Origin: Bacteroidales bacterium
GTDB taxonomy: Bacteria; Bacteroidota; Bacteroidia; Bacteroidales; UBA932
DNA: 32,000 nt
Direction of reading: 5' to 3'
Assembly: GCA_017961345.1 (NCBI GenBank)
Contig: JAGCXP010000065.1
Location: 5,461 to 37,460 of the forward strand
Below the pieces are notes generated by a model. The model searched no databases, was not told where the DNA came from, and saw only the letters and a program-made list of their open reading frames with translations. Below, in pieces: positions 1,315-24,073 of this stretch (position 1 is the first letter of the stretch; the number at the start of each line of letters is the position of its first letter). Position numbers and translations under genes: made by a program.

Positions 1315-2451
1315 TCAGCGGTCTTTATACATTTGTTCGTAATACTTGAGGTAGTCCCCGCTCGTCACGTTGTCCAGCCAGGCCTCGTTGTCCAGATACC
1401 AGCGCACCGTCTTCTCAATCCCCTCTTCGAACTGCAGGGAAGGCTCCCAGCCGAGTTCCTTCTGGAGTTTGGACGAATCGATGGCATAGCGCAGATCGTG
1501 GCCAGCACGGTCCGTCACATAGGTAATCAGGTCCATGTCGGCTCCTTCGGGACGTCCCAGCAGGCGGTCGACCGTCTTGATCAGCACCTTGATGATGTCG
1601 ATGTTCTTCCACTCGTTGAAACCGCCGATGTTGTAGGTCTGCGCGATTTTTCCTTCGTGGAAAATCACGTCGATGGCCCGCGCGTGGTCCACCACGTAGA
1701 GCCAGTCGCGCACGTTCTCACCCTTGCCATAGACCGGCAGGGGCTTGCGGTGGCGGATATTGTTGATAAAGAGCGGAATGAGCTTCTCTGGGAACTGATA
1801 GGGCCCGTAGTTATTCGAACAGTTCGTAACAATGGTGGGCAGGCCGTAGGTGTCGTGGAAAGCGCGCACGAAATGGTCCGAAGACGCCTTGGAAGCGCTG
1901 TAGGGACTGTGCGGCTGGTATTTCAAATCCTCCGTAAAGAACTTTTCCCCATAGGCGAGATGGTGCTCCCCGGAAGAGGCCTTGGTCGTGAACGGCGGCT
2001 CAATCCCTTCGGGATGGGTCATTTCCAGCGCTCCGTACACCTCGTCGGTTGAAATGTGGTAGAAGCGCTTGCCTTCGAACTTCTCCGGAAGGCTTTCCCA
2101 ATAGAGTTTGGCGGCCTGCAGGAGCGAGAGCGTACCCATCACGTTGGTCCTGGCGAAGGTAAAGGGATCCTTGATGCTGCGGTCCACGTGGCTTTCGGCT
2201 GCCAGGTGAATGACTCCGTCCACTTTCTCGCGCTGCATCAGCGCATAGATGGCATCGAAATCACAGATATCGATGCGCTCGAAGCGGTAATTGGGTTTGT
2301 CCTCGACATCCTTGAGGTTCGCGAGGTTCCCGGCGTAGGTCAGCTTGTCGACATTGATGATCTTGTAGTCGGGATATTCGTTGACGAAAAGGCGGACGAC
2401 ATGGCTTCCGATAAAGCCGGCGCCGCCGGTGATGATCAGGCTTCTTTTCAT
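1315..2451 (-). CDS. rfbB: dTDP-glucose 4,6-dehydratase
   Basis: 378 aa. N-terminal [11 protein letters not shown] Rossmann motif, extended-SDR YSASKASSD catalytic motif, and typical RmlB length and layout. ATGA start/stop overlap with rfbA (2448-2451). Confidence 0.93.
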
Positions 2452-3323
2452 GCTTTGGCCAGGTTAAGAAGATATTGTCCGTAGGGATTCTTTTTCATGG
2501 GCTCGGCTACCTCAATCAGTTTTTTCGCGCTGATCCAGCCGTTCTTGAAGGCAATCTCCTCGAGGCAGGCCACCTTCAGGCCCTGGCGTTTTTCAATCAC
2601 TTCAATGTAGGTGGACGCCTCGGAAAGGGAATCGTGCGTCCCCGTGTCCAGCCAGGCAAATCCCCTGCCGAGCGTTTTCACCTTCAGGTCCTTGCGGGAA
2701 AGGTATTCCTGGTTGACCGTGGTGATTTCCAGTTCGCCGCGGGCAGAAGGCTTGATCTGTTTGGCAATGTCCACGACGCTGTTGGGGTAGAAATACAGGC
2801 CCACAACCGCATAGTTGGACTTCGGTTGCGCAGGCTTTTCTTCAATGCTCAGGCAGTTGCCCTGCTCATCGAACTCCGCCACGCCGTAGCGCTCGGGATC
2901 CTTCACCCAGTAGCCGAAGACGGTCGCCTTGTTTTCCTTTTCCGCATCCGAGACGGCCTCGTGCAGCATTTTCTTAAAGCCGGGGCCATAGAAGATATTG
3001 TCACCGAGCACCAGGCAGGCCGCATCGTCGCCGATGAACTTCTCGCCGATAATGAAGGCCTGGGCCAGTCCGTCGGGAGAAGGCTGCTCGGCATATTCGA
3101 AGCGTACGCCGAAGTCACTGCCGTCGCCCAGCAGACGCTTGAAACCGGGGAGGTCGTAAGGCGTGCTGATAATCAGGATTTCCCGGATGCCGGCGAGCAT
3201 CAGCACGGAAATGGGATAATAGACCATCGGTTTGTCGTAGATGGGTATCAACTGTTTGCTGACCCCTTTGGTAATCGGATAGAGGCGGGTTCCGCTGCCT
3301 CCGGCGAGAACGATTCCTTTCAT
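2448..3323 (-). CDS. rfbA: glucose-1-phosphate thymidylyltransferase
   Basis: Track ORF 2448..3497 trimmed to the internal ATG at 3323. From there the protein reads [25 protein letters not shown]..., the canonical RmlA N-terminus (GGxGTRL), giving 291 aa. The 58 upstream codons overlap the 3' end of the glycosyltransferase gene. Confidence 0.93.
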
Positions 3324-3342
3324 GGTATGGATACTTATTATT

Positions 3343-5808
3343 CTACAAAGGTACACATTTTGAGACAATATCGCATATTTCTTCTCCGTGCCGGGACCAG
3401 GAGAAATGCTCCCCGGCCCGCCGGGCCTTTTCGCCCATTTCCTTGCGACGCTTTTCATCGACGGCGAGGGCGAGCATCGCTTTCGTGAGGTCGGCAATCA
3501 CTTCTTCGCGGCTCCGCTCCCGCTCCGCGTCGAGGCGGGGTATCAGGATACTGTATTCGTCCGAGAAATAGCGGGTATAGCCCGTGGTGTCGAGGCAGAT
3601 CAGCGGTTTCCCGAGGGCGAGCGAGTCGAAGGACACCGTGACGGCGCCCTCCCGCAGGGACGCGTTGACGAGCACGTCACAGCCCGAGACAAAACGACGG
3701 TACACCTCCATCGGCACTTTCCCGGTAAAGGTCACGTAGTCCTTGGAGAGGCCCAGCGAACGGGCCAGGCGACGGAGCTTGCCCGCATCGGGTCCCCCGC
3801 CCATCAGCGTCAGGCGCATCGGCGGAAGGTCCTCCTCCATCAGCGCGCGGCGGAGCGAAGCCTCGAAACGGGCCTTGGCAAAGGCCTCCAGCACCAGGTC
3901 AAATCCCCGCCAGCCTTCCAGCCTTCCCACGGAGAGAAAATCCACGAAGTCCTTTTGGGCTGGTTCCGCAGGCTGCCACCCCGCTTCGGGGGTAAACGCG
4001 GCCTCGTTTTCCACGGCCACGTCGGTAAAGAGCACGGCCTTGCCGCGATACTTTGCGGGAATCTTTTCGCGGGAGATTTCCGTCTTGCACAAAATCAGGG
4101 AAGCCTCCCGGCAACGCCGGTGAAAGGCAGGGCTCAGGGGCGCCAGGGCAACGGTCAGTCGGCGCAGGCCTTCAAACAGGCGGGAGCGTAGGCTGTAGAA
4201 ACGGCTGTAGGAAGAAGGCACTGTCTCCATGCCCCCTACCGGTCCCCAAATGAAGGTCTTCGCCCGACGGCCGCTGCGGCTCACTTCCCAGAGCATATTG
4301 CCGTAAGTCAGGTGATGGAAGATGTCTATCCCCTCCTCCCGCAGGGTTTTCCGGATAATGGAATCGGAGAATCGCTGCCAAAGCGTATAATATAAATGAA
4401 TGCCGCGACGGCCCTTTTTCCACCAACGGGCCCAGCGGGGCAAGTCATACCAGAGGAAATGAAGATGGGGATTGCCGCCCGTTTCCGCCACCCATTTTTC
4501 TATGGCGGGCCGGTTGCTTCGTCGCGTCAGCACCCAGACTTCGAAGCGGCGGCTCAGTTCCAGCACCCAATGCCAGCCCACGCCCACCTCGCTGCCCAGG
4601 CCGGGCTCGCAGGCATAGGCGCTCACCAGCATTTTTGTCCGGCCGTTTTCAGCGGGGCCGGACGCGGCGGTCAACGCGTGGGCGGTGGAGGAAGGTTCAC
4701 CTAAACTAGGCTCATAGAGCCGTTCATAGCCGGCGACAATGTCTTTCCAGCAATAGTGTTCGAAGGCCAGTTTTTCCAGAGCGGCCGCATCGCTTTCGGG
4801 ATAAGGGAGAGCCAGCATTCCGGCCAGCTGCTCGGCGGTCCTAAAGTAGCGTGCTTTCCCGAAAGTCGTCTTCCGATTGTAGTTCACATCGAAGGCCAGA
4901 ACGGGCCGTCCGAAGAACATCGCTTCGACCAGGGAGGGGTTGGTTCCGCCCGCGCTGTGAGCGTGGACATAAAGGGCCGCGTTGGACCGCAGGACGGCGA
5001 GCTCGTCGAGGTCGTAAACGGCGCCTGCAAGGCGGATACCGGGGCGGTTTTCATACCGCTTTTTCAGCGTTCTCGCCCAGGGGCTGTGGTCCCAGTTGCC
5101 GACGAAAAGAAGGGGCATCTTTCCCGCCTTTTCAAAGGCCTCCAAAATCAGATGACAGTTGTTCTCCGGCTCGACACGACAGAGCGCAAAAGCATAACTG
5201 TTTTGTTTTACTCCGTATTTATCAAGTATTTGCAAAGACCTGTCCGAGGCCACTTCGCGGCGGACATGATCGCCTCCGTAGGCGATGGTAACCAAACGCG
5301 TACCCCAGCGCGAGAGCGGATAAGTCTCCCGAACATAGTCTGCAATCGCCGGATTGTCGGCCACGACAACGTCCGAAAAGCGCACCGCCAGGCGCTCGCT
5401 TACCCGCAGGACGAAGCGGGCCATCCGGCTCCACTTTTGGCGGCGGTGTTCGAGCCCGTCGATGTTCACGATCAGGCGGGTTTTCCGGGAAAGGAAGCAG
5501 CGAACGAGGGGGAAAAACAGACCGCCGGAAACGCCGAGAACCAGCAGGGCGTCATAGCCCCGCAACGCGCGAAAAAGTGACAGTCCGTCGTAGAGAATGC
5601 TCTGCGCTCCGTTGGCCCTGAGCGCCACATAGCGAAGGCGTGCGCCCCGGTAGGTATCACCTGGCTCACGGGCCAGGTCACGGGAGGAACAGAAGACGGT
5701 ATATTCCACCTCCTTCGAAGCATAAGCGAGCAGGTTTTCCGCCAGCGATTCGAAGCCGCCGTAGTGTGCCGGCACCCCTTGCGTTCCTATGATAGCCACC
5801 CGTTTCAC
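3343..5808 (-). CDS. fused double GT-B (GT4-like) glycosyltransferase, 821 aa
   Basis: The N-terminal half (about aa 1-365, nt 4633-5808) starts [26 protein letters not shown], the signature N-terminus of DUF1972-type group-1 glycosyltransferases. A Ser/Ala/Pro linker ([25 protein letters not shown]) follows. The second half begins at an internal Met (nt 4630-4632) with [22 protein letters not shown], which looks like a stand-alone GT4 N-terminus, and carries a C-terminal [19 protein letters not shown] donor-binding motif. GTG start in a GTGA overlap with the upstream gene stop (5805-5808). Confidence 0.8.
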
Positions 5809-8126
5809 AGCATTTCCAACATTTGCATCCAGGCCTTCATTTCAGGCGAAGTCACACAGGAAACATCCCGGCGGAGATAGCGGGCGGCCATCCCCAGCAG
5901 GTACATCCGGTAGTGATCCACCTGTCCGGAAGGAAGGATGATTTCCCGGACGATCCGCTCCGGGCTCCAGCGACGCTCCAGCAGGGCCGTCTGCACCCGG
6001 AAATGGCAGGCGTCCAGCCCCACGGGATTGCAGAAGGAAGCATATTCCCAGTCGAAGACCTCGAGCCTTCCGCCGCTGACATAGAGATTCCAGGGCGTGA
6101 AATCATTGTGGGCGAGCGTACAGGCGAGCACGGTGCCACGATGCTGGGAAAGCAGTATTTCCGCCTGCCTTTTCAACGCCTCCGGCATCAAGTCCAGTGT
6201 CTGCCGCAAATCCTCGCAGAGGGAGGTCTGCTCGAAGGGGGCGTCGCCGCCCGTGAGTTGCTCCAGGCGACCCAGGTAATGGGCCATCAGAGGGCTCCAA
6301 CGATGCGGCGTTCCCGAGAACGGTGTTTTATGGCTGTCCTGCACGAAGGCGGTTCCCTCCCCTGTCGCTTCGAGGGCCACTACGCGGGGAATGCCCTCCA
6401 TCCCACGGGCGCGGAGATTATCCAGAATGGTTTTCTCGTGTTCGAACAGGGCAATGACGGCGGGATTGTCCGAGAGTTTGACATAGCCCTCGATCTTCCC
6501 GTTCCGGAAGATTTGCAGGGTCACTTTTTTATGAACGGAAGGGGTTCCTTCAAAGACGGCATATGAGTGCTCGCCACGGCCGAAACAGTGCTGGAAGAGC
6601 GTTTGAAGTTGCGGATAGGGCTCCGGCACCTCTTCCATTTTCAAGGCCTTACGGACAAGGGCACTGCCTCCCAGCAAGGGCAGGAAGCATTTGAGGGCCT
6701 TTCCTTTCAAACTGCCGGGCTGATACAGGCAGAGGGCGGTACGCATTTTCCTCGAAGGCAGCACCCACGCCTTTCCGTCGGCATTCTGAATGCGGAACCA
6801 ACGCAGTTTTTCGCCCAAAATACGCCGGCGGTTTTTGGTATGCTGCCCTGCATAGACGCTGCGAAGAATCGTCCGGACCGCCTCCTCGGGCGCCCCGTCA
6901 TTGGTCACTTTCAAATAGAGTCCCGGCCCGCCTCCCTGCTTTTCCATCAGGCGCTCCATCACCCCGGAAATCGCCTCCACCTCTTCGCGGGACAGTTCCT
7001 TCTTGCGGGAAAGAATGGTGTCCGTAGAAGCCGTCAGCAGAATATTGTAATCCAACGAGGGGACAAACAGACGGCCCCAGGCATAAAGGAAGTCGAAGGG
7101 AAGATAGATTCGGCTCCGGCGCGAGTCGCAGATGATATCGGTGTAGTAGCGGTCGAAAAAGACCAGGAAGGTGTAGCGAGTCCTGCTTTTAACCTTGATC
7201 CACCAGCCCAGGAGGTAATCGGTGGTGTAGTAGCAAAGGCGCAGGAACGAACTCAGCACGCCCGTTTTCCCGCCGCGGTGGGGATTGCTGTAGTTGTCGT
7301 CCACCGACTTCTTGAGGCCGGCGGAATGGGCCACGTCGCTGATGTTGCCAAAGAGCGTGGGCCGGAAATGGTAGAGCACGTGCGCCTTGGAAAAGACCTT
7401 CGAAAGCGCGGAGAGCACCCCTTCGATGACCGTGGTCTTCCCCACTCCGTCCGGGCCGGTGAACCCCAGGGTAAACCCTGTATCGGAACAGAAATAATTG
7501 CGCAGGCGGGCATACTCGAAACGAAGGAAACGGCCGGCGTTCTCCAGGGGCTCGCGCCGGAAAGCGGCCCAAAGCAACTGACGGGGAGCAGCCGCATCGC
7601 AAGCGGCCGTTCCGTCCTGGCCGAAGACCGTCCTCAGCGTATCCCGCACCATGGAGCTGTCCCCCACGGTAGCGCGCACCGAGGCGTATTTTTCGGGGTA
7701 GGCCGCCCCTACCGCCCTGTCATAGAGATATTTGTCGAGAAATTCGATTTCCGGGGATACCACGCGAAGAGGCACCTCCCCTTCCACTGTCCGGACCCCG
7801 GCGAGCAATTGCTCCGCGCTCAGCAGGCGGATGCCATAGACCGAGCAGTCGAAGAAAAAGTCCAGTTGCAGCAGGCCCTCTTCACACCCGATCACCCAGG
7901 TCACCAGCCGGTCGCTCCAAAGATAGGTCACGACCTTCCAGCCGGCGTTTTCCACCAGAGCGAAGAGTTCGTTTTTCAGCCCCTGATAATCGCTCCGCCG
8001 CAGGACAATGTCGATATCGCGGCTGTCGCAGCGCTCGGGAAGCCCCTCGGCATTGCGCAGCACCGCGTAGTCCGCCCGCTCGCCCAGGAAGGAAAAAAAG
8101 GATTTCAGGAAGGCGGAGGTACTCAT
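5805..8126 (-). CDS. three-domain protein: NTase-like N-terminal domain + P-loop thymidylate-kinase-like domain + choline/aminoglycoside-kinase-like (APH/ChoK fold) domain
   Basis: Start moved to the ATG at 8124-8126 (MSTSAFLKSFF...), which forms an ATGA overlap with the porin-like gene stop (8123-8125). N-terminal domain: YAVLRNAEGLPERCDSRDIDIVL, resembling a pol-beta NTase hG..(S)xDIDhhh motif. Middle domain: Walker A GFTGPDGVGKTT (nt ~7431-7463) plus FFDRYYTD, a TMK/dNK-like DRY motif. C-terminal domain: HNDFTPWNLY (catalytic HxDxxxxN, nt 6087-6110) followed by EVFDWEYA, matching the choline-kinase/APH pattern HNDLxPxN...IDWEY. Confidence 0.75.
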   Translation of the reverse strand: MSTSAFLKSFFSFLGERADYAVLRNAEGLPERCDSRDIDIVLRRSDYQGLKNELFALVENAGWKVVTYLWSDRLVTWVIGCEEGLLQLDFFFDCSVYGIRLLSAEQLLAGVRTVEGEVPLRVVSPEIEFLDKYLYDRAVGAAYPEKYASVRATVGDSSMVRDTLRTVFGQDGTAACDAAAPRQLLWAAFRREPLENAGRFLRFEYARLRNYFCSDTGFTLGFTGPDGVGKTTVIEGVLSALSKVFSKAHVLYHFRPTLFGNISDVAHSAGLKKSVDDNYSNPHRGGKTGVLSSFLRLCYYTTDYLLGWWIKVKSRTRYTFLVFFDRYYTDIICDSRRSRIYLPFDFLYAWGRLFVPSLDYNILLTASTDTILSRKKELSREEVEAISGVMERLMEKQGGGPGLYLKVTNDGAPEEAVRTILRSVYAGQHTKNRRRILGEKLRWFRIQNADGKAWVLPSRKMRTALCLYQPGSLKGKALKCFLPLLGGSALVRKALKMEEVPEPYPQLQTLFQHCFGRGEHSYAVFEGTPSVHKKVTLQIFRNGKIEGYVKLSDNPAVIALFEHEKTILDNLRARGMEGIPRVVALEATGEGTAFVQDSHKTPFSGTPHRWSPLMAHYLGRLEQLTGGDAPFEQTSLCEDLRQTLDLMPEALKRQAEILLSQHRGTVLACTLAHNDFTPWNLYVSGGRLEVFDWEYASFCNPVGLDACHFRVQTALLERRWSPERIVREIILPSGQVDHYRMYLLGMAARYLRRDVSCVTSPEMKAWMQMLEML

Positions 8127-10663
8127 TTCCGGATGCTTGGATTGGGGATATGGCCGATATAGAAAGGCCAGAAAATGCCCACTTTCACGCAACTCTGGGT
8201 ACGGATGTAGTGTGCCGCGGAGAAGTAATCCCGCTGTCGCATCGGCCAGCCCATATTGGCGTTCTCATACTTGATATACACACAGCAGCGTTTCCACTGG
8301 AGATTGAGGAAGATATCGAAAATCGGCGTGTTGCCGTAGAAGGTGGTCGTCTGGTTGAAGAAGGCGCCGGTCGAGGGATTGTAGCCGGGCATGTGCCAGC
8401 TGGTCATATACCAGGCGTTGACGCCCACCTGCATGTCCAGCACCTGCTTGACCACCCCGAACTGGAAGTACCAGCGCAGGTTGGCGGAGAAATGGGGCAG
8501 CGGCAAAACCTGATCGTTGGAAGAGAACTGAGCCAGCAGGCGGTTCTCCAGGTGGAATTTCCAAATGGTGAAATCCTTGCGCAAATCGATGGAAAGCACG
8601 TTCACGACGCCGTCGTGCTGCACCGGCAGGGCATCCGTGCCGAAATAGACCGGATTGGCCAGCAGGCCGTAGCCGACGTGAAGGGCTAGGTCCCAGTGCG
8701 GAATTTCCAGCCCGCCGGTAAAGCGGGTGACGGATTCCTGGCGGAAGGCGTTGTCCCAACGGTAGTGGTTGGTGTAGTAGTGCTGCATCAGGAAATCCGG
8801 CGTCTGGAGCTTGGTATCGAAACGGAAAACGAAGGACATCGGGCTGTTGCGGGCCTTGCGGAAAGGATAGAGGTTGAAACGCAGGCCGGCGTCGATGAAG
8901 AAGTCGTTGCGTTCGGCCCCGGCAAAATTGTACCTTCCGTTGGCATCCCATTCAAAGTACTTCTGGAACTGTCCCTTGACGGCGGCGTAGGCATACACGC
9001 TGTTGAGATAGGTATCCGTCGATTTCGACAGGTACATGTCGGGCGAGGGCATGAAATAGCAGAGGAACTTGTCTCCGATACCCACATCAATTTTGGAAAC
9101 GATGGCGTCGCTCTTCCAGGGCTGCAGGCGCAGGTAAATGCGGTTTTCCAAGCGGGCGTTTCGCAGGGAGTCGCTGGTGGCGCGGGGGTTGATGTAACAG
9201 GCCGGGTAGAAGGCCTTGTCCGCGGTCGTCGTCATCGCATCCTTGTAGGTGCGGCGGTACACGCTGAACTCACTGCTGTGGCCGATGAAGGCGCTGGTAA
9301 CATCCCGTTCCAGGGGGTCGTCGCTCTCCTCCTTTTTTCCGGAGAAGAAAGACATGGGGAAACGGTAACTCTGGTCGAGGAAGACGGTAAAGCGCTTGAT
9401 GGCGCTGGAAGCATTGGAAAGGTTGACGGGAATCTCACGGGCATCGACCGTCGTGTCCTTGATCCAGTTGATGCCGGTCTTGGGATCGTCGTCGATGGCG
9501 CCGCCGTTTTCCTTCCGCTCAACGTGGTTGTAGATAAAGCCGGCGTGCATCAGGTAGCGTTTGCCCAGATAGTTCAGGCCTACGTGGGCGGTTCGGTTCA
9601 TCGTCTCCTCCTTCTGGAGATAACCCTTCGCACCGTAGCGGTAGATACCCAGGGTCAGGTTCAACGCCGGGGTGATATTCTGGCTGGCCAGCACCCCCAC
9701 GTTCAGGTCTTCCTTCTCCTGTCCGTTGAAGAGCGTTCCGGAATACCAGAGTTCGGTATAGGGGGTCTTGGTATTGTACTGCGGCATCGTCTCGGGCGTG
9801 AAGGTCCAGTCCAGATAGGGCGTGTAGAAGAAGGCGTTTTCCTGACTGCGCCGTTTGAACCAGTCCTGCGTCTGGGCCGGTGAACCGGACACACCCAGCC
9901 AGGTCGCGTTCACATCGTCGCGGTAGATGCTGTAATCCGGGTAGTGATAGTTGTAGGAGGTATCCTGGGGCGTCAGTTTCATATCGCCGAAACGCCGGTC
10001 GAGCGTCCACATCAGCAGTCGCCGGTATTGCAACGAACCCGGAAGGGCCCAGGTCTCAAGGATACGCGGCGTGTTGTCCCGGATGGAATCCCGGACCTGA
10101 CGGACCGAGTCGTTGTAGGCCTCACGGGCCTCCAGACGGGCCAGTTTCTCGGCATTGCGGGCGGCGAGGCGCTTATCGCGGTCGTATTCCCGGCGTTCCT
10201 TCTTGCTCAGGGACCAGTACCATTTGTCAAACAGCCACTGCTGACGGCCGGCGGAGTCCAGGGCCCAGATGGAGTCGAGCAACGCCCGGGTGGCGGTATC
10301 TTTGCGGGCATCCAGGCTATCCCGCACGGCAGCGAGGGTGGCGGAATCCCGCAGGGCAATAAAGTATTTGTAGCGGAAACTGTCCTTTTGGGCGAGGGAA
10401 TCGGGGATCCGCATCGTATCGATGGGATAGAAGAGAAGGGCCTCTTCGGCCATCAGCGAATCGGCGAAATAGGCGCTGTCCGCGCGGGCCATTGAGTCGA
10501 GTTTCGCTCGCAGCCGTTCATCCCGTGCGCTGCGGGGTTCGAGACGGAGACTGCCGTCCTGCGAACGCAACGGCTGACCCGGAAAAATCCGGGCAAAAAC
10601 AGCCAGGGTCAGCAGGGTCGCCAGGACCGGAAAAGCTCTAAATCTCCGCATCTGTCTTCTCAA
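8123..10663 (-). CDS. large outer-membrane beta-barrel protein (Bacteroidota 'putative porin' type), first gene of operon
   Basis: 846 aa. Basic and hydrophobic signal peptide (MRRQMRRFRAFPVLATLLTLAVFARI). A charged Asp/Arg/Ala-rich helical region of about 170 aa follows. Then a long Tyr/Asn/Gly/Phe-rich alternating region (TPYTELWYSGTLFNGQEKEDLNVGVLASQNITPALNLTLGIYRYGAKGYL...ENGGAIDD) typical of beta-barrels. From memory this resembles the PF14121 putative porin family. The alternative start at 10651 is equally possible. Confidence 0.7.
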   Translation of the reverse strand: MRRQMRRFRAFPVLATLLTLAVFARIFPGQPLRSQDGSLRLEPRSARDERLRAKLDSMARADSAYFADSLMAEEALLFYPIDTMRIPDSLAQKDSFRYKYFIALRDSATLAAVRDSLDARKDTATRALLDSIWALDSAGRQQWLFDKWYWSLSKKERREYDRDKRLAARNAEKLARLEAREAYNDSVRQVRDSIRDNTPRILETWALPGSLQYRRLLMWTLDRRFGDMKLTPQDTSYNYHYPDYSIYRDDVNATWLGVSGSPAQTQDWFKRRSQENAFFYTPYLDWTFTPETMPQYNTKTPYTELWYSGTLFNGQEKEDLNVGVLASQNITPALNLTLGIYRYGAKGYLQKEETMNRTAHVGLNYLGKRYLMHAGFIYNHVERKENGGAIDDDPKTGINWIKDTTVDAREIPVNLSNASSAIKRFTVFLDQSYRFPMSFFSGKKEESDDPLERDVTSAFIGHSSEFSVYRRTYKDAMTTTADKAFYPACYINPRATSDSLRNARLENRIYLRLQPWKSDAIVSKIDVGIGDKFLCYFMPSPDMYLSKSTDTYLNSVYAYAAVKGQFQKYFEWDANGRYNFAGAERNDFFIDAGLRFNLYPFRKARNSPMSFVFRFDTKLQTPDFLMQHYYTNHYRWDNAFRQESVTRFTGGLEIPHWDLALHVGYGLLANPVYFGTDALPVQHDGVVNVLSIDLRKDFTIWKFHLENRLLAQFSSNDQVLPLPHFSANLRWYFQFGVVKQVLDMQVGVNAWYMTSWHMPGYNPSTGAFFNQTTTFYGNTPIFDIFLNLQWKRCCVYIKYENANMGWPMRQRDYFSAAHYIRTQSCVKVGIFWPFYIGHIPNPSIRK

Positions 10664-14229: not shown

Positions 14230-16251
14230 TTACAGCGTACGGTACTCCCGGCCGTAACGCAGGGACTGGCTGAGGAAATCCTCGTCGTAGGAAATCTTGA
14301 AATCCACGATTTCCCCGTCCTTACAGACCGGAATGATTTCCGGATTGACAAAGCCGCCGTAGGGCTTGAGGTTCAGGGCGGCGTAACGCTCGAGGATTTC
14401 GCGGTGCAGGTCGTAGTCAATCTTGACGGCGTAGTCCTCCACCAGACGCTTTCCCGCCGCATAATCCCCTTCGGATTTGATGCGCTGGACCTCGGCGAGC
14501 AGTTCGCCGAAAAGCCCCCGCAGCCCCGCATAGTCGTTCACCACGAAATAGGTCTTGCCGTCCTTCACCTTTTTCTCAATGATATCGGTGGTGCCTTCGA
14601 CACCGCTGCGGCCCAGGCCCTTTTCGTAGCACCAGGCGGCAATCAGCAGCCGGTTCTGCATATGGGCTTCCGTGTTGTCACGACCCAGTTCCACGCGGGT
14701 AAACTGCGTCAGCAGACCATTGCGGATGTAGTTGGCATACTGGGCCTTGAAGGCCTCGCCGTCCGGCAGGATTCCCAGTTCGACGAGTTTGTCATCCGCG
14801 ACATAGTAGAGGCCGAAGAGGTCGGCACGCGCTTCCTCCAGCGTGGAGGAATACTCGCCCAGGGCCCCCGAGGGCGTTCCGGGCAGAAGTTGGCCGCTGC
14901 CGTGCCCCAGACACTCGTGCAGGTCGGTATGGATATCGTTGGTCAGTTCCAGGTACTTTTTCGCGAGCGCCACCTCCTCTTCGTCGTAGGCATATTCAGC
15001 GAGGGTGCTGCGGGGCGACTCCTGCGCAGCCAGGTTGTAGGCGCGCGTAATGTTGGAAATGGTCACGGACTTCGAGCCGTATTCCTTGCGGATCCAATCC
15101 GCATTGGGCAGGTTGACGCCAATGGGCGTAGAGGGGTAGCAGTCTCCTGCCAGCACGGCGGCTTCGACCACCTTCGCCGTCACGCCCTTCACTTCCTTTT
15201 TCTTGAAACGCGCATCCACGGGAGAATGGTCTTCGAACCACTGGGCGTTGGCGGAAATCAGTTCGCTGCGCCGGGAAGCGGCCACATCCTTGATTTCCAC
15301 GATGCTCTCCCAGGTTGCCTTGCGTCCGAGAGGGTCTTCATAATCTTCCACGAAACCGTGAATGACATCCACGGCCCCCTCCTTCTCCTGTACCCAGGCG
15401 ATGTTGAAATCATCCCAGGTCTTCAAGTCACCGCTGCGGTAATAGTCGATCAGCAGGGCCAGGTAAGCGCGCTGGGCCTCGTTCTCGGCATATTCCGCCG
15501 CTTTTTCCAGTTCGGCGATAATCTTTTCGAGGGCAGGACCATAGACGCTCTGCGCATTCCATACCTCTTCATAGACACGGCCATCGCGTTTGACCAGGCG
15601 GCTGTTCAGGCCGAAGGAAATCGGACGGGGGCCGCTTCCCGCCGCCATGCCGGCATAGAAGGCATCCACCTCCGAACGCGTCAGTCCCCCGTCGTAGAAA
15701 TTGATGCCGGAGGCCGCCACCAAGTCCTTCGAAGAGTCGGTACAACGACGCTGAGGCGCGATTTCGGGGTCGTACATCATCTCCAGCAAGGCTTGCGCAT
15801 CCGCTACCGCAGCCCCTTCGAGCAGCATCGCGAAGTACTCCTTCGGACAGGCGGGGAAGAACTTGTCCTGGGCATAGTGGTGATGGATGCCGTTGGAGAA
15901 GAACACCCGTTTGGCATAGACCAGGAAGTTGTCCCAGTCCTCGCCTTTGCGCTCCCCTTTCCAGTTTTCAAGAATTTGCTCGAGGGCGTGACGGACCTGG
16001 AGATTGTACTTTCCATACTGATCCCAGAGAATGTCGCGGCCCCATTTGGCCGACTCCGCCAGGTGGTAGGCATAGCGTTTCTGATCGAGCGTGAGGGAAT
16101 CCCATGCGTCAATGCGGTAGCGCATGATTTTCACGTCCGCGAATTCATCGATCAAGTATTTGAAATCCTGCGTTTTCGGGGCGCAGCCCACGACCATCGT
16201 CACACTCATCGCTGCCAGAAAGATTTTGGAAAGGGTTTTCATAAATTTCAT
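14230..16251 (-). CDS. dipeptidyl-peptidase III (peptidase family M49), lipoprotein
   Basis: 673 aa. Zinc motifs HECLGH (nt 14902-14919) and EEARAD, the bacterial DPP III variants of HEXXGH/EEXR(K)AE(D). Signal peptide with lipobox (SVTMVVGC). Confidence 0.9.
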   Translation of the reverse strand: MKFMKTLSKIFLAAMSVTMVVGCAPKTQDFKYLIDEFADVKIMRYRIDAWDSLTLDQKRYAYHLAESAKWGRDILWDQYGKYNLQVRHALEQILENWKGERKGEDWDNFLVYAKRVFFSNGIHHHYAQDKFFPACPKEYFAMLLEGAAVADAQALLEMMYDPEIAPQRRCTDSSKDLVAASGINFYDGGLTRSEVDAFYAGMAAGSGPRPISFGLNSRLVKRDGRVYEEVWNAQSVYGPALEKIIAELEKAAEYAENEAQRAYLALLIDYYRSGDLKTWDDFNIAWVQEKEGAVDVIHGFVEDYEDPLGRKATWESIVEIKDVAASRRSELISANAQWFEDHSPVDARFKKKEVKGVTAKVVEAAVLAGDCYPSTPIGVNLPNADWIRKEYGSKSVTISNITRAYNLAAQESPRSTLAEYAYDEEEVALAKKYLELTNDIHTDLHECLGHGSGQLLPGTPSGALGEYSSTLEEARADLFGLYYVADDKLVELGILPDGEAFKAQYANYIRNGLLTQFTRVELGRDNTEAHMQNRLLIAAWCYEKGLGRSGVEGTTDIIEKKVKDGKTYFVVNDYAGLRGLFGELLAEVQRIKSEGDYAAGKRLVEDYAVKIDYDLHREILERYAALNLKPYGGFVNPEIIPVCKDGEIVDFKISYDEDFLSQSLRYGREYRTL

Positions 16252-16264
16252 ATTGCGTTATCTG

Positions 16265-16272
16265 CAAATTTC
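16265..16272 (-). promoter_or_regulatory. possible -7 box GAAATTTG for the DPP III gene
   Basis: One mismatch to TAnnTTTG, 13 nt upstream of the ATG at 16251. It is packed back to back with the C11 promoter in a 48-bp spacer. Confidence 0.35.
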
Positions 16273-16284
16273 GCAAAAATTCAA

Positions 16285-16292
16285 TATCTTTG
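16285..16292 (+). promoter_or_regulatory. Bacteroides-type -7 promoter box TATCTTTG (consensus TAnnTTTG) for the C11 peptidase gene
   Basis: Exact consensus match 7 nt upstream of the ATG at 16300, implying a very short leader. Confidence 0.6.
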
Positions 16293-16299
16293 CAAGACG

Positions 16300-17496
16300 A
16301 TGAGAAAATTTTGCCTCTCGATTTTCAGCGTCCTGCTGTTTCTGGCTGCCGCCTGCGAGCGGGAGCCCGCCCCTACACCGGGTCCCCAGCCCGCCCCTTT
16401 CACGCCCCTGGACTCCACCCACCTGATCTTTTTCTACACCTGCGGGCACAACAACGGGCTCTCCACCAACATCGAGAACAACTTCAACGAAATCCTGAAG
16501 GGAACGTATATCCCCTATCTGGCGGACACCAGCCGCATCGTCCTGTTTCACAGTCACTCCAACGACAAGGCCCCCCTGCTGCGGCGCATCGGCCGCGATG
16601 ATAGCGGGAACGTGACCACCGTCGACCTCCACTGGGAAGAATTCGACAACTGGGACGACAGCACCTTCTGCATCTCGAGTGACACCCTCTCCAAAATGCT
16701 GACGGCCGCGAACGCTCGCTTCCACGCCAAAAGGAATTACCTCGTCTTCTCCTCCCATGCCAGCGGATGGACGCCGGCGGGTGCCTTCCTCTCCGACAAA
16801 TATATTCCCGTCGCCTCCTCCATCGGCCAGGACCTGGGCAAGGATGGCGTACACGTGTATGAAATGGAACTGCCCCGCTTTGCAGACAAACTGCCCTTCC
16901 GTCTCAACGGCATCATTTTCGACGCCTGTCTGATGGCCTGCGTGGAAACGGCCTGGGAACTGCGGGGAAAATGCGACATCGTGGGCTTCTCCCCCACCGA
17001 AATCATGGCGCACGGCATGTACTACGAAACGATGCTCGACAACCTGTTCAAGGACGACGTCGTGCAGGTAGCCAAAGACTATATGAGTTTCTACCGGAAT
17101 CGGGGCAGCAATCCCTACGGCTGCTACACCGTCGTGGACTGCCGGAAAATGGACGCCCTCGCAGAAGCCTGCAAACAGATTTTCAACGCCCACCGCAGCC
17201 GGATCGACGGTGTCAACCCCGACGACGTCCAGCACTATTTCCGGGACAACCACACTTGGTTCTACGACCTGCGCGACCTCACCCGCGCGCTGGGATCCGA
17301 TCCGGGGGAACTCGCTTTGATGGATGCCGCCCTCGCCTATTGCGTCCTCTTTGCCGACCACACGGATTATTTCCTGACTCTGAAAATCGAACGCAGCTGC
17401 GGCCTGAGCACCTACCTGCCCCGCACGGGAAGCACGGATCTTTCCGCGTATTACAAGCTGCTGAAGTGGAACGAGGCGACGGAGTACGTCCGCTAA
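16300..17496 (+). CDS. clostripain-family (C11) cysteine peptidase, lipoprotein
   Basis: Only the 3' third of track ORF 14404..17496 is real. The in-frame ATG at 16300 gives MRKFCLSIFSVLLFLAAAC (lipobox). Catalytic His context is LVFSSHASGW and catalytic Cys context is IIFDACLMA (Cys codon 16927-16929), as in C11 peptidases. 398 aa. Confidence 0.82.
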   Translation: MRKFCLSIFSVLLFLAAACEREPAPTPGPQPAPFTPLDSTHLIFFYTCGHNNGLSTNIENNFNEILKGTYIPYLADTSRIVLFHSHSNDKAPLLRRIGRDDSGNVTTVDLHWEEFDNWDDSTFCISSDTLSKMLTAANARFHAKRNYLVFSSHASGWTPAGAFLSDKYIPVASSIGQDLGKDGVHVYEMELPRFADKLPFRLNGIIFDACLMACVETAWELRGKCDIVGFSPTEIMAHGMYYETMLDNLFKDDVVQVAKDYMSFYRNRGSNPYGCYTVVDCRKMDALAEACKQIFNAHRSRIDGVNPDDVQHYFRDNHTWFYDLRDLTRALGSDPGELALMDAALAYCVLFADHTDYFLTLKIERSCGLSTYLPRTGSTDLSAYYKLLKWNEATEYVR

Positions 17497-20382: not shown

Positions 20383-20416
20383 GGGACTTTTAATCCGCTA
20401 AAACAAAAAAAATGGG

Positions 20417-20424
20417 TATATTTG
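20417..20424 (+). promoter_or_regulatory. -7 box TATATTTG for tpiA
   Basis: Exact TAnnTTTG match 42 nt upstream of the tpiA ATG, in the AT-rich divergent tyrS/tpiA spacer. Confidence 0.6.
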
Positions 20425-20466
20425 CAGGATTTTTGAGGAAATTACACAATTAAACACCCATACATT

Positions 20467-21222
20467 ATGAGAAAGAACATCGTTGCCGGAAACTGGAAAA
20501 TGAACACCACCGTTCCGGAAGGTATTGCCCTGGCCAAGGACGTCGTCGCCGCCAGCGCGAAAGTCCCCGCCTCCGTCAAACTGATCATCGCCACCCCGTT
20601 TACCCACCTCGTTCCCGTCGCGGACGTCGTGAAGGGCAGCGTCGTGAGCCTCTCCGCCGAGAACTGCGCCGACAAGGAGAAAGGTGCCTACACCGGTGAG
20701 GTGTCCGCCGCCATGCTCGCCTCCGCCGGTTGCGAGTACACCATCCTCGGCCACTCCGAGCGCCGTCAGTACTATGGCGAGACCGACGAGAAACTCGTCG
20801 AGAAGACCAAGCTCGCCCTTGCCAATGGCCTGAAAGTGATCCTCTGCGTGGGTGAAAACCTCGAGGAGCGCGAAGCCGGCAAACACTTCGACGTCTGCAA
20901 GAGCCAGACCGAGAACGTCCTCTACAACTTCAGCGAGGAAGACCTTAAGAACATCGTCATCGCCTACGAGCCCGTCTGGGCCATCGGCACCGGCAAGACC
21001 GCCACGGCCGAACAGGCGGAAGAAATCCACGCCTTCATCCGCAAGGTGGTTGCCGACAAGTTCGGTGCCAAGGCGGCCGAGGACATGAGCATCCTCTACG
21101 GTGGCAGCTGCAAGCCCTCCAACGCGAAGGAACTCTTCGCCCAGAAGGACATCGACGGCGGTCTGATCGGAGGTGCCGCCCTCAAAGCGGAAGACTTCAT
21201 CCAGATTGCGCTGTCGTTCTAA
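20467..21222 (+). CDS. tpiA: triosephosphate isomerase
   Basis: 251 aa with [27 protein letters not shown] and YGGS motifs. Confidence 0.95.
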
Positions 21223-21310
21223 AAGGACACTCGCGCTTTCAGGAGCGCATGCAACATTTTCACTAAGACCTGCATCTTATAGATGGTTTAGGTTTTAGTA
21301 CACGCTAAAA

Positions 21311-21357
21311 AAGGGAACGCCAGGGCTGTGAAGTTCGACGTTCCCTTCTTGTTTTTG
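21311..21357 (+). terminator. probable terminator of tpiA
   Basis: Stem AAGGGAACG / CGTTCCCTT (9 bp) with a rather large 19-nt loop, followed by CTTGTTTTTGG. Confidence 0.5.
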
Positions 21358-21371
21358 GCAGATTTTTTGCC

Positions 21372-21379
21372 TATTTTTG
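21372..21379 (+). promoter_or_regulatory. -7 box TATTTTTG for the M6 protease operon
   Basis: Exact TAnnTTTG match 19 nt upstream of the ATG at 21399 and just downstream of the tpiA terminator. Confidence 0.6.
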
Positions 21380-21398
21380 CAGAGATATACCTAAACCG

Positions 21399-23666: not shown

Positions 23667-24073
23667 AACGCCTTGCACTCTTCTTCCTGGCTCTTGCCTG
23701 CGTCGCCGTCTCCTGCACCCCGGAAGACGTGATGCTGCGCGACAGCCTGATCAGCGGCAACGGCATCTGGGCCCAAAAAGCCGACACCCCGCTCTTTTCC
23801 TACGACGAGAACAACTGTCAGTATTCCTACTCGCGGGATGAAGTCGTTTTCCACCTTTTCGACGACAACATGTCCAACTGGCTGAAACTGGACTGCAAGG
23901 GTGCGAAGCTTTCGCTCGGCGCCTCCATCCAGGCCAACCTCGAATGGACGACCAGCGCCAATGTCCTGCGCCTGAACAGCGTCCCCTTCGAACTGCTCAA
24001 AATTGAAAACGGGCTCTACTACTTCTGGTGCTCCCGCGACAACATCGCCCTGCGCCTGCGGGCAGATTTCTGA
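23663..24073 (+). CDS. small hypothetical lipoprotein, translationally coupled to the M6 protease
   Basis: 136 aa. MKRLALFFLALACVAVSC is a signal peptide with a lipobox Cys, followed by TPED (acidic residues just after the Cys, compatible with a Bacteroidota surface-export signal). ATGA overlap with the protease stop (23663-23666). No recognisable family. Confidence 0.6.
   Translation: MKRLALFFLALACVAVSCTPEDVMLRDSLISGNGIWAQKADTPLFSYDENNCQYSYSRDEVVFHLFDDNMSNWLKLDCKGAKLSLGASIQANLEWTTSANVLRLNSVPFELLKIENGLYYFWCSRDNIALRLRADF

What the first reader, a model, noticed from the sequence alone, without database searches (positions are those of the whole stretch)
5805..8126. 773-aa fusion of NTase-like, thymidylate-kinase-like P-loop and choline-kinase/APH-like domains
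One polypeptide carries three nucleotide-using modules. (1) An N-terminal region with ...LRNAEGLPERCDSRDIDIVL..., resembling the pol-beta nucleotidyltransferase hG/S...DxD motif. (2) A Walker-A GFTGPDGVGKTT plus FFDRYYTD segment, like TMK/dNK-fold kinases. (3) A C-terminal eukaryotic-like kinase fold with HNDFTPWN and FDWEYA, the Brenner motif and metal-binding Asp seen in LicA-type choline kinases and aminoglycoside phosphotransferases. A kinase + kinase + NTase combination suggests sequential activation of a small substituent or sugar (phosphorylation, then nucleotidylation). That would be analogous in logic to LicA/LicC phosphocholine activation but built from different folds. I know of no characterised protein with this architecture. 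Substrate and product cannot be read from the sequence.
Basis: partly seen in the sequence, partly recalled or inferred. Interest (0 to 1): 0.72.

Follow-up and report, generated by a model that had tools for sequence, protein, structure and literature searches.

The report
Fused nucleotidyltransferase–double kinase glycan enzyme
This is a real three-domain enzyme (one nucleotidyltransferase and two different kinases), formed when two neighbouring genes of a Bacteroidales surface-sugar operon fused; the same domain set is widespread, always sits with one particular glycosyltransferase, and has never been characterised.

Summary
The ORF is real: minus strand, 8126 down to 5805, 773 aa. All three domain calls hold.

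- **Residues 1-213:** a pol-beta-type nucleotidyltransferase (NTase) core plus a helical bundle. It has no Pfam family, and D37, D39 and D89 are conserved.
- **Residues 214-441:** a thymidylate-kinase (TMK)-like P-loop kinase.
- **Residues 442-773:** a LicA/aminoglycoside-phosphotransferase (APH)-type kinase.

It is not an artefact. Three 773-aa sequence variants exist in separate assemblies, one of them NCBI MBP5398072.1, annotated "phosphotransferase".

The fusion is lineage-specific. In all six related loci examined (five nearest species, 62-68% identity), the first two domains (~440 aa) and the APH-like part (~342 aa) are separate, overlapping genes.

The architecture is not unique. Distant relatives carry the same three domains fused in two different orders. 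One is fused to a Wzx-like flippase, and others to glycosyltransferases.

The set is tightly linked to one GT4 glycosyltransferase, called "GT4b" here. GT4b is present in 79 of 86 loci and also beside fused forms in distant high-GC bacteria.

No characterised member was found. The best reading is a dedicated phosphorylation and nucleotidyl-activation module serving the GT4b step of surface-glycan assembly. Substrate and reaction order are unknown.

Interest is moderate: an uncharacterised, widespread module rather than a one-off architecture.

The parts
5805..8126 (-). Whole 773-aa ORF including the stop codon (5805-5807). The start ATG at 8126 overlaps the porin stop (ATGA); the stop overlaps the GTG start of the downstream glycosyltransferase gene (GTGA).
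   Evidence: identical to P0378/MBP5398072.1
7761..8126 (-). Residues 1-122: pol-beta-type nucleotidyltransferase core (alpha-beta-beta-alpha followed by five beta strands). Carries D37-x-D39 on strand 2 and D89 on a later strand. R24-N25 sit where hG[GS] is expected.
   Evidence: AF2 model pLDDT 94.7; all top Foldseek PDB hits are NTases, best JHP933 4ok0 at E 2.3e-4; D37/D39/D89 invariant among nine fused proteins at about 24% identity; no Pfam hit
7488..7754 (-). Residues 125-213: helical bundle attached to the NTase core, the same two-part layout as JHP933.
   Evidence: secondary structure; Foldseek alignment to JHP933 spans about 244 columns
6804..7487 (-). Residues 214-441: thymidylate-kinase-like P-loop kinase. 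Features: Walker A GPDGVGKTT (D226, K230), HFRP (R255), DRY (D325-R326-Y327), R374-K375 aligned to the TMK lid region, and a conserved low-confidence insert at 260-286.
   Evidence: Foldseek hits to TMKs at E 4e-8, target TM-score 0.6-0.73; family profile vs PDB gives Aquifex TMK at E 8e-10; Pfam PF02223 passes its threshold in distant fused homologues P0203 and P0233 but not in this protein
6789..6830 (-). Residues 433-446 (RRRI-LGEKL-RWFRI): the fusion junction. Five of the six related loci examined have TGATG (stop overlapping start) here and the sixth (L011) has a TGA stop. The window has several substitutions plus 4 extra bases, no stop, and stays in frame.
5808..6803 (-). Residues 442-773: choline-kinase/APH-type kinase. 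Features: K550, E564, Brenner motif H673-N-D675...N680, D692-W-E694, and a choline-kinase-like tail EYAsfcNpvgLDacHF.
   Evidence: Pfam APH E 5.9e-6, 26.6 bits vs 23.2 cut-off; Choline_kinase E 6e-4; LicA 4r77 at E 5e-7 and 8e-5 with family profiles
3343..5808 (-). Partner gene, 821 aa, itself a second fusion: a DUF1972 / Cps2T(WchF)-like rhamnosyltransferase (residues 1-367), a 27-aa linker, then GT4b (N-terminus [22 protein letters not shown]). GT4b is the conserved partner of the kinase module.
   Evidence: GT4b present in 79 of 86 loci and beside fused kinases in L087, L089 and L090
8123..10663 (-). Porin_10 outer-membrane protein (846 aa), first gene of the operon and translationally coupled to the kinase. 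This association is limited to the window's own clade.
   Evidence: (9 of 86 loci)
1315..3323 (-). RmlA (2448-3323) and RmlB (1315-2451), downstream in the same orientation. They supply dTDP-6-deoxyhexose for the rhamnosyltransferase.
   Evidence: NCBIfam TIGR01207 at 490 bits (cut-off 361) and TIGR01181 at 457 bits (cut-off 365)

Best explanation
**Shown.**
- The gene encodes a cytoplasmic tri-domain enzyme: a pol-beta-fold nucleotidyltransferase with a helical bundle, a TMK-like P-loop kinase, and a LicA/APH-type kinase.
- It arose in this Bacteroidales lineage when the stop/start overlap (TGATG) between two translationally coupled genes was replaced by an in-frame 5-residue join.
- Catalytic hallmarks of all three domains are conserved down to about 24% identity.
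- The three domains form a recurrent functional unit. They occur split, fused as NT-TMK-APH, or fused as APH-NT-TMK.
- The unit is an obligate neighbour of one GT4 glycosyltransferase family (GT4b). In Bacteroidales it also sits with a Cps2T-like rhamnosyltransferase inside surface-glycan loci.

**Inferred (my commitment).** The unit is a dedicated phosphorylation and nucleotide-activation pathway feeding the GT4b step.
1. The ChoK/APH-like domain phosphorylates a hydroxyl of a sugar or small alcohol X.
2. The NTase domain joins X-phosphate to an NMP from an NTP, giving NDP-X.
3. The TMK-like domain, which is joined to the NTase in nearly all family members seen (separate in a few short representatives), performs a second phosphoryl transfer on a phosphate-bearing, nucleotide-like species. 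This could be the nucleotide moiety of NDP-X, by the logic of CoA synthase, PAPS synthase and the Campylobacter MeOPN pathway. Alternatively it could re-phosphorylate the released nucleotide.
4. GT4b or an associated transferase then uses the product on the lipid-linked glycan.

The substrate, the nucleotide and the order of steps are not determined.
For: **Anatomy.**
- ORF and motifs.
- NTase fold: AF2 pLDDT 94.7, and every top Foldseek hit is an NTase.
- TMK fold: Foldseek E 4e-8; profile E 8e-10.
- APH/ChoK: Pfam above its threshold; LicA is the best solved relative.

**Active sites retained.** D37, D39, D89, D226, G227, G229, K230, H253, R255, R326, D330, R337, K550, E564, H673, D675, N680, D692 and E694 are invariant among nine fused homologues at 23-26% identity.

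**The TMK-like domain keeps TMK-type features.** It has the acidic P-loop residue, an Arg after strand 2, and the DRY arginine. From established TMK structures these residues hold the phosphate-bearing acceptor.

**Fusion is real and recent.**

**Rosetta-stone evidence.** Among the top 150 cluster representatives:
- 48 are APH alone
- 34 are NT-TMK
- about 17 are NT-TMK-APH
- about 31 are APH-NT-TMK
- 4 are TMK-APH

**Genomic coupling.** APH lies within 6 kb in 73 of 86 loci and GT4b in 79 of 86. A GT4b orthologue is present in all three distant loci that carry fused forms: directly adjacent in L087 (66% GC) and L089 (59% GC), and about 7 kb downstream in L090 (56% GC).

**Domain packing.** pTM of 0.82 for residues 1-441 suggests the NTase and TMK-like domains pack in a fixed arrangement.

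**Precedents (my knowledge).** Kinase-NTase and NTase-P-loop-kinase fusions include HldE, Bacteroides FKP, CoA synthase (PPAT-DPCK), PAPS synthase, and C. jejuni Cj1415-Cj1418.
Against: - No biochemical data exist for any family member.
- A pol-beta-fold NTase making an NDP-sugar or NDP-alcohol has no precedent that I know of. Known enzymes for this step are RmlA/LicC-type or HIGH-type.
- The closest structural relatives of the N-domain act on other substrates. JHP933's own closest relative is LinA (PMC4125220), which nucleotidylates a hydroxyl of a finished glycoside, and the MenT toxins act on tRNA. None acts on phospho-monoesters.
- Fusions to a Wzx-like flippase (P0333), to GT4b (L005, P0289) and to a GT11 enzyme (P0172) fit action on the membrane-bound glycan at least as well as cytosolic precursor synthesis.
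- The role proposed for the TMK-like domain is the weakest link.
- The hG[GS] motif is missing.
Confidence: 0.4

Rival explanations
1. [quoted passage not shown] The APH-like domain phosphorylates a sugar hydroxyl, as WbdD, WaaP, KdkA and POMK do. The NTase and TMK-like domains then extend or activate that phosphate (nucleotidylation or pyrophosphate formation) to install a phosphodiester-linked decoration or a chain-end cap.
For: - Relatives are fused to a Wzx-like flippase: P0333, 1340 aa, sitting between the initiating transferase and GT4b.
- APH is fused to GT4b in L005 and P0289, and NT-TMK is fused to a GT11 enzyme in P0172.
- Methyltransferases lie beside a fused form in L090, which recalls WbdD's kinase plus methyltransferase cap.
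- The N-domain's best structural match, JHP933, has as its own closest relative LinA, an O-nucleotidyltransferase acting on a sugar hydroxyl (PMC4125220).
- Fructosamine-3-kinase is among the nearest solved kinases.
Against: - The TMK-like domain keeps nucleotide/phosphate-acceptor-type motifs rather than anything suggesting a glycan site.
- The APH-like domain is closest to small-molecule kinases such as LicA. Profile searches did not hit WbdD or WaaP.
- In this lineage neighbouring genes fuse readily (the GT-GT fusion), so fusions to neighbours are weak functional evidence.
- No glycan carrying such a decoration is known from these organisms.
Confidence: 0.3
2. **Nucleotide supply.** The middle domain is simply a thymidylate kinase paralogue that boosts the dTDP/dTTP supply for dTDP-rhamnose synthesis. 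The other two domains have unrelated roles.
For: - RmlA, RmlB and a Cps2T-like rhamnosyltransferase are in the same operon.
- TMKs are the best structural and profile hits.
- JGI annotates relatives as 'thymidylate kinase'.
Against: - The Pfam TMK score is far below threshold here (12 vs 27 bits).
- The canonical REPGGT region is replaced by a conserved insert of about 30 residues.
- The domain is joined to the NTase in nearly all family members seen.
- RmlA lies nearby in only 13 of 86 loci.
- The distant loci L087, L089 and L090 have no rml genes.
Confidence: 0.05
3. **Artefact.** A sequencing, assembly or frameshift error joined two separate genes.
For: All close relatives examined have two genes. 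Most evidence comes from metagenome assemblies.
Against: - The junction differs from relatives by several substitutions plus a 4-nt insertion, not by a single indel.
- Three 773-aa variants on different contigs share the same junction.
- L004 aligns without gaps.
- Natural fusions of the same domains exist elsewhere.
Confidence: 0.02
4. **Toxin or defence module.** A DUF1814/MenT-like nucleotidyltransferase toxin controlled by kinases.
For: The best structural match, JHP933, is cited in the literature on DUF1814/MenT/AbiEii NTase toxins, some of which are neutralised by phosphorylation (PMC7450476 and PMC7205606 listed).
Against: - No PADLOC hit.
- The gene is embedded by 4-nt overlaps in a glycan operon.
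- Synteny with glycosyltransferases is conserved across 86 loci and several phyla.
- The structural match is weak (E 2e-4, TM-score 0.37).
Confidence: 0.03

Closest known systems
LicA choline kinase and the APH / choline-kinase family (PF01636, PF01633)
   Same: The C-terminal domain passes the Pfam APH threshold. It has the Brenner motif HxDxxxxN, the metal-binding D of DWE, the beta3 Lys and the alphaC Glu. LicA (4r77) is the best solved relative.
   Different: Only about 20-25% similar over the catalytic core. It is not in a lic locus, and no LicC-type cytidylyltransferase or LicD is present. The substrate is unknown.
Thymidylate kinase (PF02223)
   Same: The fold matches (Foldseek E 4e-8, target TM-score up to 0.73). 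The P-loop has the TMK-type acidic residue, and the DRY motif and lid basic residues align.
   Different: Below the Pfam threshold in this protein. A conserved insert of about 30 residues replaces the REPGGT region. The domain is joined to an NTase domain in nearly all family members seen. dTMP is unlikely to be its substrate.
JHP933 / LinA / DUF1814-type two-domain pol-beta nucleotidyltransferases
   Same: NTase core followed by a helical bundle, with [DE]h[DE]h and h[DE]h carboxylates present (PMC4125220).
   Different: No detectable sequence similarity. The hG[GS] motif is absent. The structural match is weak. The genomic context is a glycan operon, not antibiotic resistance or a toxin system.
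Bifunctional activation enzymes: HldE, Bacteroides FKP, CoA synthase (PPAT-DPCK), PAPS synthase, and C. jejuni MeOPN enzymes Cj1415-Cj1418
   Same: The same logic of a kinase plus a nucleotidyltransferase, plus a P-loop kinase acting on the nucleotide product, fused or clustered to make an activated donor for surface glycans or cofactors (my knowledge; Cj1415 is named in the papers).
   Different: All three folds differ from those enzymes. Their kinases are GHMP or ribokinase type rather than APH type, and their NTases are RmlA or HIGH type rather than pol-beta type. This is an analogy only, with no homology shown.
WbdD (E. coli O9a O-antigen chain terminator)
   Same: A kinase-fold domain working with GT4 glycosyltransferases on a surface glycan; methyltransferases lie nearby in L090 (my knowledge of WbdD).
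   Different: No sequence hit to WbdD. There is no coiled coil or fused methyltransferase, and no ABC transporter in the operon. WbdD has no NTase or P-loop domain.

Membership tests
Pol-beta nucleotidyltransferase superfamily | Alpha-beta-alpha-beta-beta-beta core fold | tested here: met
   AF2 pLDDT 94.7. All 50 listed Foldseek PDB hits are NTase-fold proteins, although scores are modest (best E 2.3e-4, TM-score 0.37).
Pol-beta nucleotidyltransferase superfamily | [DE]h[DE]h on strand 2 and a third carboxylate h[DE]h | tested here: met
   D37-I-D39-I and L88-D89-F90. These are invariant in close homologues and in nine fused homologues at about 24% identity.
Pol-beta nucleotidyltransferase superfamily | hG[GS] motif at the end of strand 1 | tested here: not met
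   The sequence reads V-L-R24-N25. The nearest glycine, G28, is conserved only among close relatives.
Pol-beta nucleotidyltransferase superfamily | Nucleotidyl-transfer activity | not testable with these tools
   Requires an enzyme assay.
Thymidylate kinase (PF02223) | Pfam gathering score | tested here: not met
   12.2 bits against a 27-bit cut-off for this protein. The threshold is met in distant fused homologues P0203 (34.5 bits) and P0233 (29.8 bits).
Thymidylate kinase (PF02223) | TMK fold with P-loop GxxGxGK[ST], DR[YHF] motif and lid basic residues | tested here: met
   Foldseek TMK hits at E 4e-8. The profile alignment to Aquifex TMK covers the P-loop, DRY and lid (E 8e-10).
Thymidylate kinase (PF02223) | dTMP-binding REPGGT region and dTMP kinase activity | tested here: inconclusive
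   The region is replaced by HFRP plus a conserved insert of about 30 residues with low pLDDT. Activity was not testable.
APH / choline kinase family (PF01636) | Pfam gathering score | tested here: met
   26.6 bits against a 23.2-bit cut-off, E 5.9e-6.
APH / choline kinase family (PF01636) | Brenner motif HxDxxxxN, metal-binding Asp, beta3 Lys and alphaC Glu | tested here: met
   H673, D675, N680, D692, K550 and E564 are invariant across fused homologues.
LicA/LicC/LicD phosphocholine pathway | LicC-type (RmlA-fold) cytidylyltransferase and LicD transferase in the locus | tested here: not met
   The only RmlA-fold enzyme is a genuine RmlA (TIGR01207, 490 bits). No LicD hit appeared for the N-domain even at E <= 10.
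Anti-phage defence / toxin NTases | Match to a known defence-system model | tested here: not met
   No PADLOC family matched at E <= 0.01.

The most novel reading that the evidence does not exclude
The NT-TMK-APH set is a previously undescribed route of nucleotide activation. In this route a pol-beta-fold nucleotidyltransferase, not an RmlA/LicC-type enzyme, works with two kinases to make a new kind of activated donor, for example a 3'-phosphorylated NDP-sugar or NDP-alcohol. That donor is consumed by the GT4b family and gives a conserved, so far unnoticed phosphate-containing feature of surface glycans in many gut Bacteroidales and in unrelated high-GC bacteria.
Probability: 0.2. Interest if true: 0.8.

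Novelty: new variant of a known kind. Interest (0 to 1): 0.55.

Why it matters
**Prevalence.** The module is common in gut, rumen and mouse Bacteroidales, including Bacteroides rodentium, B. stercorirosoris, Duncaniella freteri and Muribaculum intestinale. One 90% cluster was seen on hundreds of contigs.

**Location and state of knowledge.** It sits inside loci that build surface glycans, which are the main interface with host and phage. No member has been studied, and its N-terminal domain has no Pfam family.

**What the fusion patterns offer.** The repeated, order-independent fusions and the strict pairing with one GT4 family make a clean, testable hypothesis of a four-activity pathway.

**Possible payoff.** Solving it could reveal a new glycan decoration or a new way of making activated donors. 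It would also correct the misleading database labels "thymidylate kinase" and "phosphotransferase".

Tried and rejected

**Searches that gave little or nothing.**
- Sequence-only PDB searches found nothing for the N-domain.
- The third homologue search, using a profile of fused proteins, returned mostly the same close relatives. It added only P0332 and P0333.
- Four literature searches for a characterised member, or for a kinase-bearing Bacteroides glycan locus, found nothing relevant.

**Ideas tested and dropped.**
- Typical Bacteroidales loci are the lfg protein O-glycosylation locus. A metG signature scan found nothing within the flanks. The lfg terminal enzyme is a GT2 fucosyltransferase, not the DUF1972 enzyme seen here (PMC8698959). 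Dropped.
- The B. thetaiotaomicron LOS cluster has only one 'LPS kinase', with no evident link to this module (PMC5850320).
- Defence or toxin reading: no PADLOC hits.

**Untested lead.** The compact operon might make the unknown Man-Rha core of the Bacteroidota O-glycan (PMC12871550). This is kept only as a low-probability lead. It is untested, and the module's presence across the phylum was not established.

Full report
**1. Observation**

The window carries an open frame on the minus strand from 8192 (TTG) or 8126 (ATG) down to a stop at 5805-5807.

This ATG is the likely start. It overlaps the stop of the upstream gene as ATGA, and homologues begin at the matching residue. The stop overlaps the GTG start of the next gene as GTGA.

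All quoted motifs are present:
- LRNAEGLPERCDSRDIDIVL at residues 23-42
- GFTGPDGVGKTT at 221-232
- FFDRYYTD at 323-330
- HNDFTPWN at 673-680
- FDWEYA at 691-696

They are K230 and D675 in the 773-aa protein.

**2. Domain identities**

*C-terminal third (residues 442-773).*
- Pfam places it in the APH family above the curated threshold (E 5.9e-6, 26.6 vs 23.2 bits).
- It also gives a weaker Choline_kinase hit.
- Family profiles find LicA choline kinase (4r77) as the best solved relative (E 5e-7; E 8e-5). Fructosamine-3-kinase and APH(2'') follow.

*Middle domain (residues 214-441).*
- By single-sequence search it shows only P-loop-level hits.
- An AlphaFold model of residues 1-441 (pLDDT 84.6, pTM 0.82) matches thymidylate kinases throughout the top 50 Foldseek hits (E 4e-8, target TM-score 0.6-0.73).
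- A more diverse family profile hits Aquifex TMK at E 8e-10, with the P-loop, DRY motif and lid region aligned.

*N-terminal domain (residues 1-213).*
- It has no Pfam or PDB sequence match.
- Modelled alone, it reaches pLDDT 94.7.
- Its Foldseek hits are exclusively pol-beta-type nucleotidyltransferases: H. pylori JHP933 (E 2.3e-4), mimivirus poly(A) polymerase, terminal uridylyltransferases, Pol mu/lambda/TdT, and the SpoT synthetase domain.
- The scores are modest, but the fold class is unanimous.
- Two of the three superfamily motifs are present, D37-x-D39 and D89. The hG[GS] motif is replaced by R24-N25.
- JHP933 is an NTase core plus a further domain. Its own closest relative is the lincosamide O-adenylyltransferase LinA (PMC4125220).

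**3. The fusion is real but recent**

*Split in relatives.* Apart from P0001, the 120 best listed homologues of the full protein are 430-447 aa and cover only residues 1-441. All 49 homologues of the C-terminal part are stand-alone proteins of 339-383 aa.

*What the nearest relatives look like.* In the six related loci examined (five nearest species, 62-68% identity; L001, L007-L011), synteny is conserved: DprA, Porin_10, NT-TMK, APH, DUF1972 glycosyltransferase, GT4, RmlA. There the two parts are separate genes. In L001 and L007-L010 the stop and start overlap as TGATG.

*What the window has instead.* The window reads CGT ATT TTG GGC GAA AAA CTG CGT TGG, with no stop, several substitutions and four extra bases. 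This is not a single-indel error.

*Independent support.*
- An independent metagenome scaffold (L004) matches 7,843 bases with 6 mismatches and no gaps, and encodes the fusion.
- The 90% cluster holds three distinct 773-aa variants from different contigs. One is identical to the window protein and deposited as MBP5398072.1, 'MAG: phosphotransferase [Bacteroidales bacterium]'.

*A second fusion in the same operon.* The DUF1972 rhamnosyltransferase-like gene and the following GT4 gene are joined by a 27-residue linker. They are separate in relatives.

**4. The architecture is not unique**

An exhaustive search of 1.84 billion cluster representatives found 5,282 relatives. I classified the top 150 by domain:

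| Architecture | Count |
|---|---|
| APH alone | 48 |
| NT-TMK | 34 |
| NT-TMK-APH (some N-domains too diverged for phmmer) | about 17 |
| APH-NT-TMK (permuted order) | about 31 |
| TMK-APH | 4 |

Nine collinear fused proteins at 23-26% identity keep the hallmark residues of all three active sites: D37, D39, D89; D226, G227, G229, K230, H253, R255, R326, D330, R337; K550, E564, H673, D675, N680, D692, E694.

Other fusions also exist:
- GT4b+APH in L005, and a GT4+APH protein, P0289
- NT-TMK plus a GT11 fucosyltransferase, P0172
- A Wzx-like flippase plus NT-TMK-APH, P0333, 1,340 aa

Fusion in two different orders is strong evidence that the three activities work together.

**5. Genomic partners**

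I examined 86 loci: 80 species representatives, mostly Bacteroidaceae, Prevotellaceae, Muribaculaceae and other Bacteroidales, plus 6 others.

Within 6 kb of the NT-TMK gene:
- 79 loci contain an orthologue of the second half of the window's fused glycosyltransferase. I call it GT4b; its N-terminal signature is SAYACEPxxGSExxVGW.
- 73 contain the APH-type kinase.
- At least 50 contain the DUF1972 / Cps2T-like enzyme.

Among the 80 species representatives, clustering of neighbours also shows a GT2 in 71, a 407-aa membrane protein in 58, and another GT4.

Three distant loci from non-Bacteroidales organisms (56-66% GC) carry a fused tri-domain gene together with a GT4b orthologue. GT4b lies immediately downstream in L087 and L089, and about 7 kb downstream in L090. 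In L089 the order is initiating phosphoglycosyl transferase, flippase-NT-TMK-APH, GT4b, then a Wzy-type protein.

The window's own operon adds a genuine RmlA and RmlB. It starts with a Porin_10 outer-membrane protein that is specific to this clade (9 of 86 loci). The surrounding genes are housekeeping: TyrRS, Pth, L25, MltG, S1, QueA, DprA.

**6. Mechanism**

*Shown.* There are three intact catalytic domains. They are coupled to each other and to GT4b, and they sit in surface-glycan loci.

*Inferred.* I favour a dedicated phosphorylation and nucleotide-activation pathway:
1. The ChoK/APH-type domain makes X-phosphate.
2. The NTase makes NDP-X.
3. The TMK-like domain carries out a second phosphoryl transfer on a nucleotide-like species. 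This domain keeps the residues that in TMK hold a phosphate-bearing acceptor.
4. The product serves the GT4b step.

This follows the logic of HldE, FKP, CoA synthase, PAPS synthase and the Campylobacter MeOPN pathway, but uses different folds. That comparison rests on my knowledge and is analogy only.

The main rival is direct modification of the lipid-linked glycan, in the manner of WbdD, WaaP or POMK kinases and LinA-like O-nucleotidylation. The flippase and glycosyltransferase fusions and the neighbouring methyltransferases in L090 favour this rival. I cannot separate the two readings with sequence data. I give them 0.4 and 0.3.

Three other readings are unlikely:
- A plain dTMP-kinase role: Pfam score below threshold, altered substrate region, and rml genes absent from most loci.
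- A defence or toxin role: no PADLOC hit.
- An artefact: refuted in section 3.

**7. Comparison with known systems, and novelty**

Each domain belongs to a known superfamily, with one failed defining feature apiece for the NTase (hG[GS]) and TMK (Pfam threshold, dTMP site) assignments. The protein is not a member of the LicA/LicC/LicD pathway.

I found no characterised protein with this domain set in four literature searches. Databases label members 'hypothetical protein', 'thymidylate kinase' or 'phosphotransferase'.

The window's gene is therefore a new, fused variant of a widespread but unstudied module built from known folds. The interest lies in the module, not in the uniqueness of this polypeptide.

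**8. A speculative lead**

Reviews state that the conserved mannose-rhamnose core of the Bacteroidota protein O-glycan is made by unknown genes located outside the lfg locus (PMC12871550, PMC8698959).

The window's compact, housekeeping-embedded operon contains a rhamnosyltransferase-like enzyme, GT4b, RmlA and RmlB. It could be examined in that light. I did not test this, and the module's presence across the phylum was not established.

Noticed in passing
window 3343-5808 (-): The downstream glycosyltransferase (821 aa) is a second lineage-specific fusion in the same operon. A DUF1972/Cps2T-like enzyme and GT4b are joined by a 27-residue linker that still contains the old start Met. They are separate, overlapping genes in relatives (L001).
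   Followed up: yes
window 8123-10663 (-); L004 1-1511: A Porin_10 outer-membrane protein (846 aa) is translationally coupled (ATGA) to the kinase gene, but only in the window's clade (9 of 86 loci). In scaffold L004 three SNPs fall in this gene and it is called as two pieces, which suggests a premature stop in that variant.
   Followed up: partly
L005 11474-13858; P0289; P0172; P0333 (L089 2335-6357): Other natural fusions of the module's parts exist: GT4b+APH, GT4+APH, NT-TMK plus a GT11 fucosyltransferase, and a Wzx-like flippase plus NT-TMK-APH (1,340 aa).
   Followed up: partly
window 14404-17496 (+) versus 14230-16251 (-) and 16258-17361 (-): The 1,030-aa plus-strand ORF is part shadow, part real. 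Its residues 678-930 (about 16.4-17.2 kb) match Peptidase_C11, while the M49 peptidase on the minus strand is real at 14.2-16.3 kb. The 367-aa minus-strand ORF with no Pfam hit is therefore probably the shadow of a plus-strand clostripain-like gene.
   Followed up: partly
window 21399-23666 (+): The 755-aa plus-strand ORF carries a Peptidase_M6 (immune inhibitor A-like) domain. The three minus-strand ORFs over it (20398-21030, 21288-22292, 22611-23678) have no Pfam hits and are probably shadows. This stretch has the highest GC (0.62) and the strongest negative GC skew in the window.
   Followed up: partly
window 29881-30501 (+): A canonical stand-alone deoxynucleoside kinase (Pfam dNK, E 3e-56) lies in the same window. 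It is an orthodox member of the TMK/dNK fold and a useful contrast with the divergent TMK-like domain of the fusion.
   Followed up: no
window 6567-8162 (+): A 531-aa ORF lies antisense to the kinase gene and has no Pfam hit. Long antisense ORFs are frequent in this 59% GC window and should not be read as genes.
   Followed up: partly
L013, L056, L066, L084, L020, L072 (record titles): Several loci carrying typical Bacteroidales versions of the module are labelled Akkermansia sp., Saccharibacteria or Streptococcaceae MAGs. Given 50-58% identity to Bacteroidales proteins and the same synteny, these look like binning or labelling errors rather than true hosts.
   Followed up: no
L090 2977-10124: Beside a distant fused tri-domain gene lie three methyltransferases (two Methyltransf_21/FkbM type), a polysaccharide deacetylase and several GT4 genes. 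This recalls kinase-plus-methyltransferase capping of O-antigens.
   Followed up: no
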